Below, in pieces: positions 32,566 to 56,065 of a stretch of 64,000 nt of DNA. Positions within the stretch are counted from its first letter, which is position 1. Each line of letters opens with the position of its first letter. Origin of the DNA: an uncultured Candidatus Rokubacteria bacterium (GTDB taxonomy: Bacteria; Methylomirabilota; Methylomirabilia; Rokubacteriales; DASRDR01). The notes under the pieces were generated by a model that saw only the letters and a program-made list of their open reading frames with translations, did no database searches and had not been told where the DNA came from. The stretch spans positions 1-64,000 of the forward strand of contig CAWDVE010000010.1 of assembly GCA_963805625.1 (NCBI GenBank), read 5' to 3'. The translations under genes were made by a program, and so were the position numbers.

Positions 32566-32804
32566 CCGATAAACCTACCTGTAAATATCCTTTTATAAAT
32601 AACCGGTATATGAAACCGACCTTGCCCTGATGTGAAGGTATCGACTGTCTCCCATTTGGGCAGCCCGCATTGTTCCTGATATCGGCATCTTTGTATCAGT
32701 ATCTGTCTGCCATAAGTTACGATCCCGTGAATTTGCGGCAGGGTTTTTATGTATTCATTATTTTTCAACCCATTACGGAAAAATTGATAAATTTATGGCT
32801 CCGT

Positions 32805-33245
32805 GGAAATCCTACACTATATTTTCTCAACACTCTTTTATGGGCTGTGGCACGTAATGCTTCCGCCCCCGCCGCTGTGGCACCCCCCTAGAGCAATTAC
32901 TCCAGAGAAGGTAATACAACATCATCGCAAAGCGCAGGGGCGGTTCGGGGGGACAGGCACTGTCCCCTCCGTAAATAGGTACTTTGCAATTCGTTGAAAA
33001 CTTAGAGTTTCCCATCGAAAGATTGCCAGCCAGATGGCCAGGTTTAAATACTTCGATCGGGAAGTGCCAATCCCGCAATTGCGATGACCTGCGCCGCCCC
33101 CGAAGGGACGCCCCCGCGGCGCTTCAATGTGCCTGAAAACTCCACCCTGGCCTCTCAAGAGCCTGTTACGGATGCCAGTCGTACCTTCACACTTTTTCAT
33201 GGTTGGGTGAGACCCATTCCCGTTCATGCCCGTTTCTACAGAGCC
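32805..33245 (+). repeat. Modular intergenic repeat, locus 5 (module B then variant module A)
   Basis: GGGGGACAGGCACTGTCCCC, GCCGCCCCCGAAGGGACGCCCCCGCGGC; ends GTTTCTACAGAGCC at 33232-33245. Confidence 0.88.
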
Positions 33246-49195: not shown

Positions 49196-49324
49196 TAGGG
49201 TACTATTATTTCATACCACTACTAATGGTAATCGATTGCCGGAATGCTTGGGCTCAGGAGCATAAACCAAGTTTTTTTTACGGGCAATTCCAAATTCATA
49301 GATGACAGACCAGAGGGTGTTTTT

Positions 49325-49594
49325 GTGCCGGAAAAATTGCAGTTGATTGTGTATACACTTGAGCATTGTCCGAATTGTGACATTCTGAAAGGATTTTTAA
49401 AAAAAGGAGGGTATAAATTCATTGAACAGGACCTCTCAACTGCGGAGTCCCTTACCGAGCTGCGAATGAATGGAATCTTCGTTAATGAAGCACCGGTCTT
49501 ACAAAAAAGTTCAGATTTTTATACCTCTGCAGACATTTTTCCCCGCGGCGAGCTGGATGCAGAGAACTTATCAAGGCTTATTTCAGGTGAATGA
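49325..49594 (+). CDS. Glutaredoxin/NrdH-like redoxin
   Basis: VYTLEHCPNC...EAPVL; abuts nrdD. Confidence 0.85.
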   Translation: MPEKLQLIVYTLEHCPNCDILKGFLKKGGYKFIEQDLSTAESLTELRMNGIFVNEAPVLQKSSDFYTSADIFPRGELDAENLSRLISGE

Positions 49595-51779
49595 ATGGCG
49601 CGGCGGGAGACAAAACAACTGACATTTGACGGAATTACCGTACCTGTCCTCCCCTTCGTCCGTACATCTGACGGGCATATCATCGAATGGAACCGCGATC
49701 GTATTGTCCGCCAGATTGTTCAGGAAACAAAGCTGGTCGAGACCTTCTATGGCTATGAAGGGGCAGACGAATTGACCGCCCAGGATATTGCCCTGGAGGT
49801 TGAAAACCGCATCAAGAACATGGGTCTGAAATCACTTTCCGGTCCACTCATCCGTGAGATTGTCAACATCACACTGCTTGAGAGGGGTATGATACAGTAC
49901 CGCAATGTTTCTACCCGTGTCGGTACTCCGGTTTATGATGCACACCAGATTGATGTCGGGAGGGGATTCGAAGCACACGACAACGCAAACCTCCAGGAAA
50001 ATGCCGAGACTTCCCATAAGAAGAAAGCAGACAAGATCTCAAAGGAACAATATCTGCTCCAGCTCCCACCCGACCTTGCCGATCATCACCTGTCCGGCGA
50101 GATGCACATCCATGATCTCGAGTATTTTGGTACGCGCCCGTTCTGCCAGGACTGGGACCTGCGCTATTTCTTCTATTATGGCCTGATGCCTGACGGCAAT
50201 GGTACAAAGGCTTCGGTGGCTGGTCCTGCGAAGCGTCCGGAGGTTGCAATTCTCCATGCGGTAAAAGCACTCGGATCCGCCCAGACTAATTTTGCCGGTG
50301 GGCAGGGTTATTACAATTTCCTCACCTTCCTGGCGCCTTATATGGAGGGGATGGGGTATAACGAGATCAAACAGAACATGCAGATGTTTGTCTATGAAAT
50401 GACACAGATGATGGTAGCCCGGGGAGGTCAGCTTGTCTTCTCATCCATCCAGCTCTCACCGGGTGTACCGACTCTCTGGCAGGACAAGCCATGCATTTTT
50501 AAAGGAAAGATCTGGGACGGCAAATCAGCTCCTCTTCGCACGTATGGGGAGTTCGAGCGTGAGGTGCGATTGCTCTTCAAAGCCCTCATGGAAGTAATGC
50601 TTGAAGGAGATTACTGGGGCAAACCCTTCAACTTCCCAAAGCCCGAGATCTCTATCGAACCGGATTTCATGAATGAACGCGAAGAGTTCAACGCGAAAAA
50701 CCCTGATCTTCCAACATTCCAGGAATTATACCTGATGACCTTCGAACTCGCTTCGAAGTTCGGAACACCCTATTACGATAACCAGCTTCCCGCGTACCGC
50801 GGAGCAGGTAAAGGGATTTCCTGTTACCAGTGCTGTGCGTATCAGTTTTCCACGGTGGCAGACAAGGATTCGGATTTTGATAAGAAGATGTATTTTGAGG
50901 ATGGCAGGCACTTCTCGATGGGATCCTGGCAGGTTGTTTCCGTAAACTGCCCCCGTGCGGCATATAATGCAGAAGGAGATGATACCCGTCTTTTTGCCGA
51001 ACTCAAGGCGCTCATGGATGTCGCGGTGGATATTTTCAAGATCAAACGCCGATGGATGGACCTTATCCGGGCCAACAGCCGGATGCCATTTGCCATGCAG
51101 CGCCCCAAGGACCCGAACACCGGTGAACGTGGCGCACTTGCTGTCGATCTTGAAGGACTGGTATATACGATTGGGGTCGTCGGTGTCAATGAGATGGTGC
51201 AGCACCACACCGGTAAGCAGACTCCACGAATCAAAAGAAGCATTCAGGCTTGCCATACGTGCGATGACAGAGATGGAGTTGTATGGTCGCGAACTCTCCG
51301 CAAAGAATAACATGACCATTGCCCTTGCCCGCACGCCGGCAGAGACGACCGGGCAAAGGTTTGCGGTTGCCGATCTGCTCGATCGCCGGTATCACGATTA
51401 TGCAGTAAACGTGATCAAAGGAGACATCGAAGAAGGCCTGGAAATGCTGGGCAAGAGCCGTGATCTCCCCATATACTATACGAATGGCACCCATGTGGCA
51501 CCGGGGGCAAATGTCCCGCTCACCAAACGTATGGAAATCGAGCATGTATTCTTCCCCATTGTTGACGGGGGGAACATCTTCCATATCTGGCTGGGTGAGG
51601 CACGTCCGGATCCACGTGGACTCATGGACATGGCGATGAAGCTCTGCCGCAATACCCAGATAGGATATTTTGCTTTTACCCGGGATATTACGGTCTCGCT
51701 CCGCCAGTTCCACGAGATGCGTTCGTCAAAGAAATCCATTACCCCTTATATCCCCTCAGATTTTCCTGTCAAGGTATAA
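49595..51779 (+). CDS. nrdD: Class III anaerobic ribonucleoside-triphosphate reductase lacking the C-terminal glycyl-radical domain (frameshift near 51221)
   Basis: ATP cone, HIHDLEYF.TRPFC, RGGQ, FNFPKP, QCCAY finger loop, TPAETT..RFA..D, YTNGTH, GGNIFHIW, YFAFT. Confidence 0.93.
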
Positions 51780-51996
51780 TGGGGGATTTCTGTATTTCAG
51801 AGAGGGTCGCTCAGGAAGAGGCAGTTTGCCATCACCATTTTTAATGGTAAGACGATTTTCGATTAACCGTTCCTGGATTATCTTTTTACCAGTTCTTTGA
51901 AGAGCTGTAATACTGAATGGGGTGCCTAGGGGCAGGGGCACAGGAATTCATTGTTTCCTGATATCATAGAGAAGTGGATTCTCTGATATCCTGCTT

Positions 51997-52345
51997 ATGA
52001 TGAACGCCGCCGCCCCCGAAGGGACGCCCCCGCGGCGGATCCAGTTACAAAGTTGGTAAATTTCGACAACTCTAAAAACCTCTGACCCGCCGTGCCTCGG
52101 AGAGGCCCTGAGGCGGGTGATCCTCATAAATTTTTTATGAAATTCACCGTTCAGGAATCGTTTTTTTAAACAGAGGATGATGAACACCGTTGTGTCCGGG
52201 GGACGTTTCCGCTGCTGATCATCCAGAAAAATCGGTCAATTTCTGATATATACCAGAACCGCCATGCCTTCGGAAAGACCTGTGGCGGGGACCCTCATCA
52301 GGGCAGAGCGGATTTTTCATCGGTGAGGGTTCACAGGGAACATAA
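51997..52345 (+). repeat. Modular intergenic repeat, locus 7 (one good and one degenerate module A core)
   Basis: CGCCGCCGCCCCCGAAGGGACGCCCCCGCGGCGG and CCCGCCGTGCCTCGGAGAGGCCCTGAGGCGGG; second copy CCGCCATGCCTTCGGAAAGACCTGTGGCGGG. Confidence 0.87.
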
Positions 52346-54023: not shown

Positions 54024-55508
54024 TCAATGCCTGAAGTATCGGACACCGGTAAAAATCATCGCCATATGAAGCCTGTTCGCAGCATCGATTACCTCTTTGT
54101 CGCGGATGGATCCACCCGGTTGTATAAGTGCTGTAGCTCCTGCTTCAGCCGCAACTTCGAGGGTGTCTGCAAATGGCAGAAATGCATCTGAAGCGACAGC
54201 AGACCCAATCAGCGATGATCGGGCTTTCCCGACGGCAATTTTTGCAGCATCCACTCTGCTCATCTGACCGGCACCAATCCCGAGAGTACGCTTCTGATCG
54301 GCAAAGATAATGGTATTGCTTCTGGCATGCTTACACACCTTCCAGGCAAGCTGGACCGCCCGCAGCTCATCGGGAGTCGGGTCTCGATCGGTGATCACCT
54401 TCCAGTGCTCCTGATAAGGGGGCGTTCGCTGAACAAGGACTCCTCCATCAATCGATCGGATTTCATCAGAACCGGATTTTTCCGGCAGAATCAGCACACG
54501 CATGTTTTCCTTTTTCCTGATGATGGCAAGGGCTTCTTCAGAAAATGACGGGGCAACGAGGACTTCAACAAATGTTCCGGCAATCTCTTCTGCTGTGTTT
54601 TTATTGATTTCACGGTTGAAACAGACAACGGATCCGTAAGCAGAAACGGGATCGACTTCGCGGGCATCGATGTAGGCCTCGGCTATGTCTGTGCCAAGAG
54701 CGACACCGCAGGGATTATTATGCTTTATAATGACAGCAGCAGGATCTTCAAATTCCCGGAGGAGTGCCACACCGGCATTTACATCAAGATAATTGTTATA
54801 GGACATCTGCTTTCCCTGAAGGGGTATGGCTCCTGCAATACCAAGCTCCCCATACACTGCAGCCTCCTGATGCGGATTTTCCCCGTACCGCAGTGTTCTG
54901 CCATGACTGAACTGAACCGTATAGGTCGTGGGAAACGAATCACTGAGACCGAACAGGTAGTTGCTGATGGCACCATCATAGGCTGCCGTTCTGGCAAACG
55001 CTTTTTTTGCAAAAGCAAGGCGCTGATCGAGAGAAAGTTCATTGCCCTGAATTGCTGTAATTAACGACGGATAATCCTCAGGGTCTACAACAACCGTGAC
55101 ATTTTTGAAATTTTTTGCTGCTGCCCGGATCATCGCAGGTCCACCGACATCGATATACTCGATCAATGATTCGAGATCCATGTGCTGCCCTGCCATCTTC
55201 TCAAAAGGGTACAGGTTTACAACGAGGACATCGATCCGGTTAATACCATGCTTAGCCATTACCAGATCATCAATCTGCCTTCTTCCCAGGAGACCCCCGT
55301 GAACTTTCGGATGCAGCGTCTTTACCCGGCCATCCATCATCTCGGGAAAACCGGTGTAACTGGAAACCTCGGTAAACTTTATGCCGGCTTCGGCAAGTGC
55401 CTTTCCGGTCCCGCCTGAGCTCATAATATTATATTTCTGACGCGAAAGTTCCTCGGCAAGCTCGACGATACCGGTCTTGTCCCAGACCGAGAGTAGTGCC
55501 CACTTCAT
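54024..55508 (-). CDS. purH: Bifunctional AICAR formyltransferase/IMP cyclohydrolase
   Basis: ALLSVWDKTG, GRVKTLHP, LRYGENPHQ, KHNNPCG, GAGQMSR, ASDAF, QPGGS. Confidence 0.97.
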   Translation of the reverse strand: MKWALLSVWDKTGIVELAEELSRQKYNIMSSGGTGKALAEAGIKFTEVSSYTGFPEMMDGRVKTLHPKVHGGLLGRRQIDDLVMAKHGINRIDVLVVNLYPFEKMAGQHMDLESLIEYIDVGGPAMIRAAAKNFKNVTVVVDPEDYPSLITAIQGNELSLDQRLAFAKKAFARTAAYDGAISNYLFGLSDSFPTTYTVQFSHGRTLRYGENPHQEAAVYGELGIAGAIPLQGKQMSYNNYLDVNAGVALLREFEDPAAVIIKHNNPCGVALGTDIAEAYIDAREVDPVSAYGSVVCFNREINKNTAEEIAGTFVEVLVAPSFSEEALAIIRKKENMRVLILPEKSGSDEIRSIDGGVLVQRTPPYQEHWKVITDRDPTPDELRAVQLAWKVCKHARSNTIIFADQKRTLGIGAGQMSRVDAAKIAVGKARSSLIGSAVASDAFLPFADTLEVAAEAGATALIQPGGSIRDKEVIDAANRLHMAMIFTGVRYFRH

Positions 55509-55646: not shown

Positions 55647-56065
55647 GCTCTGTTGAAACGGGCATGAACGGGAAAATTGAACTAAACAGATGTTCGTAAT
55701 GGATTGTTTATTCTTCAAAATTATTTGCGATGAACCCCGCCGCCCCCGACGGGGCGCCCCCGCGGCGGATCAGTATCTGTAAGCATATTTGCAAAACACC
55801 GCACTGCCCCGCCGTGCCTCGAAGAGGCCCTGAGGCGGGGGACCCTCCTAAAATAGGATGGTTTAATGATTTTCATCGCAATTTGTTGAAATCTTAGGGT
55901 TTCTGAGGGGAACAGTGCCTGTCCCCCGACCGCCCCTGCGGTTTACGATTGTGTTGTATTACCTTCTCGGGAATTATCGCTCGACAGGGGATGTCACAGC
56001 GGCGAGTGTGGAGGCATTACGTGCCGTTGTCCTGAAGAGCGTTGAGAAAAATATTGTGAGGATTT
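55647..56065. repeat. Modular intergenic repeat, locus 8 (inverted end fragment + module A + inverted module B)
   Basis: GCTCTGTTGAAACGGGCATGAACGGG at 55647, both GC hairpins, GGGGAACAGTGCCTGTCCCC. Confidence 0.9.

What the first reader, a model, noticed from the sequence alone, without database searches (positions are those of the whole stretch)
49325..51779. Class III RNR missing its Zn-ribbon and glycyl-radical loop: candidate split enzyme
Seen: NrdD is complete through YFAFTRDITV, where CxxC...CxxC and R-(I/V)-x-G-Y should follow, but it ends SLRQFHEMRSSKKSITPYIPSDFPVKV*. Neither alternative frame contains the Cys cluster or RxxGY, so a frameshift does not explain the loss. No nrdG is in the window, and a CPNC redoxin abuts the gene. 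Known: NrdD needs a C-terminal glycyl radical installed by NrdG; GrcA supplies a radical domain in trans to PFL; redoxin-dependent NrdDs occur in Methanosarcina. Inference: a two-chain RNR with a separately encoded, replaceable glycyl-radical subunit (useful after O2 cleavage). This may be lineage-wide.
Basis: partly seen in the sequence, partly recalled or inferred. Interest (0 to 1): 0.72.

Follow-up and report, generated by a model that had tools for sequence, protein, structure and literature searches.

The report
Split DNA-precursor enzyme, separate radical subunit
This methanogen gene for the oxygen-sensitive enzyme that makes DNA building blocks ends before its radical-carrying tail, as it does across its relatives, which encode that tail as a separate 120-residue protein elsewhere in the genome that likely plugs into the enzyme as an essential, possibly replaceable subunit.

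Summary
The truncation is real and lineage-wide. The gene is a Methanoregula-type NrdD3 core ending at the barrel/radical-domain boundary; 120 of 120 nearest homologs lack the glycyl loop. In 151 genomes of the class, 139 have the core and 138 of those a separate 120-residue zinc-ribbon protein with S-R-(V/I)-T-G-Y; 12 lack both. NrdG lies at a third site, here 49 kb away on the same contig. Both pieces are under purifying selection, and in 22 genomes no class I/II reductase was found. A complex model scores 0.80 (best control 0.00) and pairs the core's retained last strand with the small protein; it may echo solved one-chain enzymes. Related stand-alone domains also occur beside full-length NrdD (8 of 121 sister-class genomes) and in tailed viruses lacking a core: spare-part candidates. 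Function is untested. The scan noted this before on other DNA, with an unexplained 'in doubt' flag; nine paper searches found no description, but two key methanogen NrdD papers could not be read.

The parts
49325..49594 (+). NrdH-like CPNC redoxin, 89 aa from the GTG (longest open frame starts at 49244); stop codon abuts the nrdD start
   Evidence: weak TIGR02196 hit below cut-off; aligns over 80 residues with the redoxin upstream of full-length nrdD in L141 and L144; a CP-x-C homolog printed upstream of 17 of 20 split cores
49595..51779 (+). nrdD core (weak ATP cone + catalytic barrel), homologs about 727 aa; lacks the zinc ribbon and glycyl-radical loop; in two frames as assembled (49595-51310 and 50955-51779)
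   Evidence: PF13597 positions 1-376 and 375-511 of 562; TIGR02487; 119 of 120 top homologs are 715-730 aa
49982..49990 (+). N-x-N active-site flap motif
   Evidence: motif described for P. copri NrdD in PMC11226230; both Asn invariant in A2
50105..50146 (+). H-x-H-D triphosphate motif and the following R-P-F-C cysteine
   Evidence: invariant in 50 of 50 rows of A2
50828..50839 (+). finger-loop Q-C-C-A motif, the NrdD3 signature
   Evidence: NrdD3 described as QCCR/A in bioRxiv 2022.04.23.489257; Q, C, C invariant in A2
51221..51221 (+). one extra base that shifts the frame; probably an assembly error
   Evidence: absent in L001 and in contigs of runs X1, X2, X4; both sides under purifying selection against L001
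51669..51710 (+). last barrel strand (FAFTRD) and retained first strand of the former radical domain (ITVSLRQF), the zinc-ligand Cys replaced by Ser; predicted docking strand for the separate subunit
   Evidence: alignment with fused NrdD; predicted antiparallel pairing of core 699-703 with subunit 86-90 in a relative's proteins
51711..51779 (+). variable tail and stop; no Cys cluster, no glycyl loop

Best explanation
[quoted passage not shown] Shown: the core keeps its catalytic motifs, ends at the barrel/radical-domain boundary, and co-occurs with the small gene and with nrdG at unlinked sites across the class. Predicted: the core's retained last strand (ITVSL) slots between two strands of the small protein, placing its S-R-V-T-G-Y loop at the finger-loop cysteines. 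Inferred from known chemistry: NrdG makes the glycyl radical on the small chain, the radical passes to a finger-loop cysteine, and the adjacent NrdH-like redoxin supplies electrons as in the Methanosarcina enzyme. Inferred history: one fission at the base of Methanomicrobiales from a one-chain ancestor. Untested: that oxygen cleavage costs only the small chain, which is then swapped.
For: 120 of 120 top homologs lack R-x-x-G-Y in their last 60 residues and 80 of 80 genomic loci end at the same place. Of 151 class genomes 139 have a core hit, for 138 of which a listed match ends at profile position 474-521; 138 have the 120-aa protein at E below 1e-50, 62-100% identical; 12 lack both and all 12 have a class I/II hit. 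The small protein matches exactly the missing profile part, 507-562, with R92, T94, G95, Y96 invariant in 47 of 47 rows. The two core-only genomes I followed up have assembly gaps at the locus. 22 of 151 genomes have no PF02867 hit; the 20 listed, including two single-chromosome Methanoregula genomes, all carry both pieces, and TIGR02505 and PF00317 were each absent in 5 of 5 tested. dN about 0.07-0.10 against dS above 1.1 for both genes. NrdG2 above cut-off in 5 of 5 genomes and on this contig. Complex score 0.80, best of 3 controls 0.00; that mark was reached by 116 of 157 solved complexes and 2 of 215 mismatched pairs; runs agree in at least 88% of contacts, partner pLDDT at least 82. Split cores form one clade (SH-aLRT 99) among fused cores.
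Against: No biochemical or expression data. The small gene is not in this window's assembly nor in the nearest relative's genome G405 (1 of 5 nearest), although both also lack the flanking pyrF. The genes are unlinked, so co-regulation is not shown. 129 of 151 genomes also have a class I/II reductase, so the split enzyme is not the only source in most. The complex model may pass by likeness to solved one-chain NrdD, and 13 of the 50 alignment rows for the core were fused proteins; the output does not give a Gly-to-Cys distance. Earlier notes of this scan carry an unexplained 'in doubt' flag on the same claim.
Confidence: 0.88

Rival explanations
1. Sub-variant of the two-chain model (counted inside its 0.88): the small protein is not a stable subunit but a loosely exchanging radical carrier, activated by NrdG off the enzyme and visiting cores.
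For: Unlinked genes; the radical domain is mobile in P. copri NrdD (PMC11226230); related domains occur alone in viruses.
Against: The predicted interface is large (199-228 contacts) with strand complementation; free YfiD is a poor activase substrate in the PFL system (PMC8683613); an exposed radical would be quenched (inference).
Confidence: 0.2
2. The core is catalytically dead or has a non-radical role; cells rely on class II reductase, and the small protein does something else.
For: 129 of 151 genomes have a class I/II hit; database names for the small protein vary (hypothetical, oxidoreductase, Spt4-like).
Against: Catalytic motifs invariant; strong purifying selection; joint presence or absence of both genes in 150 of 151 genomes; no other reductase found in 22 genomes; NrdG kept.
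Confidence: 0.05
3. The two products are joined into one chain by protein or RNA trans-splicing.
For: Inteins are common in this gene family: many cores lie in frames of 1100-2000 aa; fragmented reductase genes appear in search listings (abstracts only).
Against: No intein family hit in either window piece or in the small protein; the core's tail is variable in length and sequence; the small protein has its own complete zinc ribbon and N-terminal extension, which a joined chain would not need.
Confidence: 0.03
4. The truncation is an assembly artefact or a strain-specific pseudogene.
For: The contig is chimeric and the gene carries a one-base insertion.
Against: The same end occurs in 80 of 80 loci and in 119 of 120 homologs, the other being itself frameshifted; the 185 codons after the insertion show no amino-acid change against L001 at pS 0.11.
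Confidence: 0.01

Closest known systems
One-chain NrdD3-type class III RNR of Methanosarcinales (M. barkeri enzyme, Wei et al. 2015, PMC4697749: title seen in a reference list; text not held; NrdH role recalled)
   Same: QCCA finger loop, upstream NrdH-like redoxin, NrdG2 activase, 64-69% identity of the core to most fused relatives aligned; same S-R-V-T-G-Y ... W-N-A-x-K-Q-Q-E-L-x-D-R end in the small protein.
   Different: Radical domain on a separate unlinked gene with an added N-terminal Cys/His-rich extension; nrdG no longer follows nrdD as in the operons of L141-L147 and L149.
YfiD/GrcA of E. coli and Y06I of phage T4, spare parts for oxygen-cleaved pyruvate formate-lyase (PMC8683613, PMC13450708; passages read)
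   Same: About 14 kDa autonomous glycyl-radical domain acting in trans; a strand overlap with the truncated partner; copies in hosts and in viruses.
   Different: Partner is a ribonucleotide reductase; the fold is a zinc ribbon; in Methanomicrobiales it is the only radical domain found, so obligatory rather than a backup. The backup state is seen only in a few sister-class genomes.
Split class II RNR NrdJa/NrdJb (PMC9669993, passage read)
   Same: Reductase naturally divided into a barrel chain and a small C-terminal zinc-finger chain.
   Different: NrdJb carries the re-reducing cysteines, not the radical; class II uses adenosylcobalamin.
Solved one-chain class III RNRs (P. copri 8p23, 9d3x, T. 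maritima 4coi/4u3e)
   Same: The core aligns to P. copri NrdD up to residue 676 and the small protein to 697-736; the paper defines 676-739 as the radical domain.
   Different: All four solved sequences that matched the core are 651-743 aa single chains; no solved two-chain form turned up.

Membership tests
Class III RNR (NrdD) | NrdD catalytic barrel | tested here: met
   PF13597 1-511, TIGR02487; PDB hits are all NrdD
Class III RNR (NrdD) | Active-site motifs: N-x-N flap, H-x-H-D, first cysteine, finger-loop cysteine | tested here: met
   present in the window, invariant in A2
Class III RNR (NrdD) | Zinc ribbon and glycyl loop at the C-terminus of the same chain | tested here: not met
   present on a separate gene in relatives. 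Hence filed as a split variant, not a canonical NrdD
Class III RNR (NrdD) | Cognate NrdG activase in the genome | tested here: met
   TIGR02495 above cut-off on the same contig and in 5 of 5 relatives; that it acts on the small protein is untested
Class III RNR (NrdD) | Glycyl radical formation and ribonucleotide reduction | not testable with these tools
   needs EPR and activity assay
NrdD3 subtype | Q-C-C-R/A finger loop without the methionine | tested here: met
   QCCA at 50828; definition
NrdD3 subtype | No active-site glutamate | not tested
   alignments to NrdD2 structures too weak to place the residue
NrdD3 subtype | NrdH-like redoxin in the operon | tested here: met
   homologous to the redoxin upstream of fused nrdD; that it defines the subtype is recalled
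GrcA/YfiD autonomous glycyl radical cofactor (for the small protein) | Homology to the PFL C-terminal domain | tested here: not met
   Pfam, NCBIfam and PDB hits of the small protein are NrdD and zinc ribbons only
GrcA/YfiD autonomous glycyl radical cofactor (for the small protein) | Stand-alone gene beside an intact full-length partner (backup role) | tested here: inconclusive
   not so in Methanomicrobiales (an unrelated second full-length NrdD seen in 1 of 139); so in 8 of 121 sister-class genomes and G280
GrcA/YfiD autonomous glycyl radical cofactor (for the small protein) | Rescues an oxygen-cleaved enzyme | not testable with these tools
   needs biochemistry

The most novel reading that the evidence does not exclude
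This is a glycyl-radical enzyme whose radical cofactor is a permanently separate, renewable subunit, and its family is the sought spare-part system beyond pyruvate formate-lyase: a backup in some Methanosarcinales that keep one-chain NrdD, obligatory in Methanomicrobiales after the core shed its own domain, and carried alone by archaeal viruses to supply or redirect the host's reductase.
Probability: 0.4. Interest if true: 0.87.

Novelty: new variant of a known kind. Interest (0 to 1): 0.72.

Why it matters
A 2026 review says formate lyases are the only glycyl-radical enzymes with known spare-part proteins and that it is yet to be determined whether others exist (PMC13450708); a 2021 paper poses the same question (PMC8683613). 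Here a whole class of methanogens appears to run its anaerobic DNA-precursor synthesis with the radical on a separate 13 kDa chain, in some genomes with no other reductase found. That makes three things directly testable: radical delivery in trans in a class III reductase, repair after oxygen by swapping a small chain, and activase recognition using a small natural substrate. The viral copies offer a parallel to T4 Y06I. It also explains a recurring annotation puzzle: a 'truncated' NrdD plus a 'hypothetical' or misnamed 120-aa protein.

Tried and rejected
Searching the own assembly for the small gene: no hit by motif or tblastn; uninformative because the assembly is chimeric and also lacks pyrF, cbiZ and DUF1858, the flanking genes in Methanoregula. 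Looking for it within 6 kb of the core in 80 loci: 7 motif hits, all chance hits without the Cys cluster. Frameshift or readthrough at the 3' end: no frame holds the domain. AlphaFold2 of the small protein alone gave pLDDT 71.6, pTM 0.49, low around the glycyl loop; Foldseek found no match with E up to 0.001, so the fold of the N-terminal extension is unresolved. The tree of C-terminal segments separates stand-alone from fused domains (99/100) but rests on 71 columns and partly on the compact first knuckle; it cannot say whether backup copies came before or after the split. Names for ten divergent stand-alone proteins were absent or 'hypothetical'. No Rfam hit at the chimeric junction. Papers not held: Wei 2015, Wei 2014, a glycyl-radical review whose id I recalled, Greene 2020. 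No supplements were read; sequence tables in supplements of the phylogeny papers could mention the split.

Full report
Observation. The redoxin (49325-49594, CPNC) abuts an nrdD that starts at 49595 and ends at 51779 with the quoted tail; none of the three forward frames of 51150-51990 holds a Cys cluster or R-x-x-G-Y. Pfam NRDD is matched to position 511 of 562. First, the gene is in two frames (571 aa and 274 aa ORFs) because of one extra base at 51221. It is the only indel in the coding stretch shared with the nearest relative L001 and is left out in contigs of 3 of 4 runs laid, the fourth not covering it; the pieces on both sides are under purifying selection against L001 (358 codons pN 0.005, pS 0.20; 185 codons pN 0.0, pS 0.11). 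Shortened frames are common among the related loci (11 of 16 from one genome series). I read it as an assembly error. Second, the window is the start of a roughly 140 kb block of GC about 0.50 on a contig of a 7.3 Mb, GC about 0.70 assembly, so absence from this assembly means little. An NrdG2 above cut-off (139.1 against 131.15 bits) lies in that block at about 100.3-101.1 kb.

The truncation is lineage-wide. All 120 listed top homologs (of 2350 found; named ones Methanoregula, Methanoregulaceae or Methanomicrobiales) lack R-x-x-G-Y in the last 60 residues; 119 are 715-730 aa and one is itself frameshifted. All 80 loci kept (of 248) end at the same place. In 151 genomes of the class of G002, 139 have a core hit; for 138 a listed match ends at profile position 474-521, the C-terminal piece of G142 was among the 179 rows not listed, and only G019 shows a second, full-length NrdD of an unrelated type.

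The missing piece is a separate gene. In 5 of 5 Methanoregula-type genomes a distant frame of 127-131 aa matches profile positions 507-562. It encodes a 120-aa protein: an N-terminal helical part, a CxxC...CPxC ribbon, a C-P-L-D-H-C-x-C-x-H segment, a CPLC...CPEC ribbon and S-R-V-T-G-Y-L-Q-D-V-S-G-W-N-A-G-K-Q-Q-E-L-K-D-R. In the three Methanoregula loci read it lies between pyrF and a cbiZ-like gene. In the same 151 genomes 138 have it at E below 1e-50 (62-100% identical), 5 have only weak hits in long unrelated frames and 8 have none. The 13 without it are the 12 without a core plus G134, whose pyrF is cut by a contig end. Among the five nearest relatives 4 have it; G405 does not, and also lacks a true pyrF. 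NrdG2 is above cut-off in 5 of 5 genomes at a third site. In G003, for example, core, small gene and nrdG lie at 1.71, 0.65 and 0.04 Mb.

Evidence that the pair works. The core keeps the N-x-N flap, H-x-H-D, the R-P-F-C cysteine and the Q-C-C-A finger loop, the last being the NrdD3 signature. Among four genomes both genes show dN of 0.07-0.10 with dS above 1.1 or saturated. 129 of 151 genomes have a class I/II hit, including all 12 that lack the split enzyme; 22 have none, and the 20 of these that are listed all carry both pieces, among them the single-chromosome genomes G002 and G003. Monomeric class II (TIGR02505) and PF00317 were each absent in 5 of 5 such genomes tested. [quoted passage not shown]

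Structure. The core aligns to P. copri NrdD up to residue 676 and the small protein to 697-736; the paper places the radical domain at 676-739. Against fused relatives the core keeps the first strand of that domain, T-V-C-x-x-x-F/Y-H becoming T-V-S-L-R-Q-F-H, with the zinc-ligand Cys usually replaced. A complex of the G003 core (105-727), its small protein and three zincs scored 0.80 against a best control of 0.00; that mark was reached by 116 of 157 solved complexes and 2 of 215 mismatched pairs; runs agree in at least 88% of contacts and partner pLDDT is at least 82. The surest contacts pair core 699-703 antiparallel with partner 86-90 and also with 64-67, and core 415-416 (finger loop) is in the interface, as is partner 86-100. 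This is a model: halves of a split gene can pass by likeness to solved one-chain enzymes, 13 of 50 core alignment rows were fused proteins, and no Gly-Cys distance was given. The small protein alone folded only moderately and had no confident Foldseek match.

History and wider family. Eleven split cores form one clade (SH-aLRT 99, quick tree) among 15 fused ones, consistent with a single fission. In the sister class, 120 of 121 genomes match the loop; 9 have a stand-alone frame of 114-131 aa, 8 of them together with a full-length NrdD, and 111 have the loop only in frames of 320 aa or more (the sample was centred on a genome known to have the small gene). The eight full-length partners fetched from that class sit in nrdD-nrdG operons and those in the tree group with a protein named Methanosarcinaceae; one of their stand-alone copies (L140) has a decayed end. 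G280 outside that class shows the same state. Named members of related clusters are Alkanophagales and ANME-2c. A profile search of 1.84 billion representatives gave 594 hits, 115 at 1e-10; of 149 new proteins among the best 150, 131 are at most 230 aa and 122 of these carry the loop motif, some being fragments. In IMG/VR, 23 of 26 loci carry the stand-alone domain with no core in the stretch fetched (three pairs are identical proteins) and 3 carry full-length NrdD; neighbours include terminases, portals, primases and a tape measure protein (25 proteins scanned). Ten whole viral records scanned had no core above cut-off; five have terminal repeats and four are at least 90% complete. Their hosts are inferred from similarity only. 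Stand-alone domains group apart from fused ones (99/100), but the tree is short and gives no order of events.

Mechanism, graded. Shown: split genes, co-occurrence, conserved residues, selection. Predicted: docking through the retained strand. Inferred from known chemistry: NrdG installs the radical on G95, transfer to a finger-loop cysteine, electrons via the NrdH-like redoxin (the M. barkeri precedent is recalled; only its title was seen). Untested: replacement after oxygen damage.

Literature. I read passages (term searches) of PMC9669993, PMC4390871, PMC13450708, PMC9176816, PMC4493059, PMC8683613, PMC3019208, PMC11226230, PMC12662201, PMC2795772 and bioRxiv 2022.04.23.489257; none of the passages shown describes a split class III enzyme. 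Nine searches found no such paper; six exact phrases such as 'split NrdD' gave 0 papers. PMC13450708 and PMC8683613 state that spare parts are known only for pyruvate formate-lyase. Wei et al. 2014 and 2015, which classified these methanogen enzymes, are not held and may mention the split; no supplements were read.

Earlier notes of this scan reach the same reading on other DNA; I opened them after my genome counts, virus search and complex model. They are not independent support. Two carry the mark that the same claim was checked and is in doubt, with no reason given; my own counts support the genomic claim, so I take the doubt to bear on novelty or on untested function, but I cannot tell. 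Verdict: a real, class-wide two-gene form of class III reductase, a new variant of a known kind, interest 0.72.

Noticed in passing
G000:C10 about 1-140000 and C25 about 80000-end: The assembly is chimeric: blocks of GC about 0.50 (the C10 block holds methanogen genes) inside a 7.3 Mb assembly of GC about 0.70; GC rises from 0.54 to 0.70 over 134-145 kb with no Rfam hit there.
   Followed up: partly
window about 55500 (purH region, 54024-55508): A second single-base insertion against L001 appears near the start of the purH-like gene in the alignment string, suggesting scattered indel errors in this block.
   Followed up: no
window 32797-32996, 52000-52100, 55730-55890: A short GC-rich intergenic element recurs upstream or downstream of several genes and matches between window and L001 at more than one place; possibly a small repeat family or non-coding RNA.
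   Followed up: no
L132-L139 with L141-L148: Genomes that keep a full-length NrdD and also a 117-119 aa stand-alone radical domain in varied neighbourhoods: best candidates for a true spare part.
   Followed up: partly
L140:2834-3163: Stand-alone domain with a decayed C-terminus directly upstream of a 799-aa ORF that looks like a class II reductase by eye (not scanned).
   Followed up: no
L192-L214 (IMG/VR): Tailed viruses carry only the radical domain, often among replication genes or beside the terminase; L215-L217 carry full-length NrdD, L216 with nrdG and a redoxin.
   Followed up: partly
class of G002: About 30 genomes have cores in frames of 1100-2000 aa interrupted near profile positions 53 and 260, probably inteins.
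   Followed up: no
class of G002: Most class II hits come in two pieces (profile 1-346 and 375-523), some in frames of only 550-590 aa; may be insertions or another split.
   Followed up: no
P0121: A 612-aa protein with helicase-type Pfam domains plus a stretch 52% identical to the stand-alone domain, on one 3.3 kb contig; fusion or misassembly.
   Followed up: no
G409:C8:113650-113928: A sister-class genome whose only hit is a stand-alone domain; could be a second split lineage or an incomplete genome.
   Followed up: no
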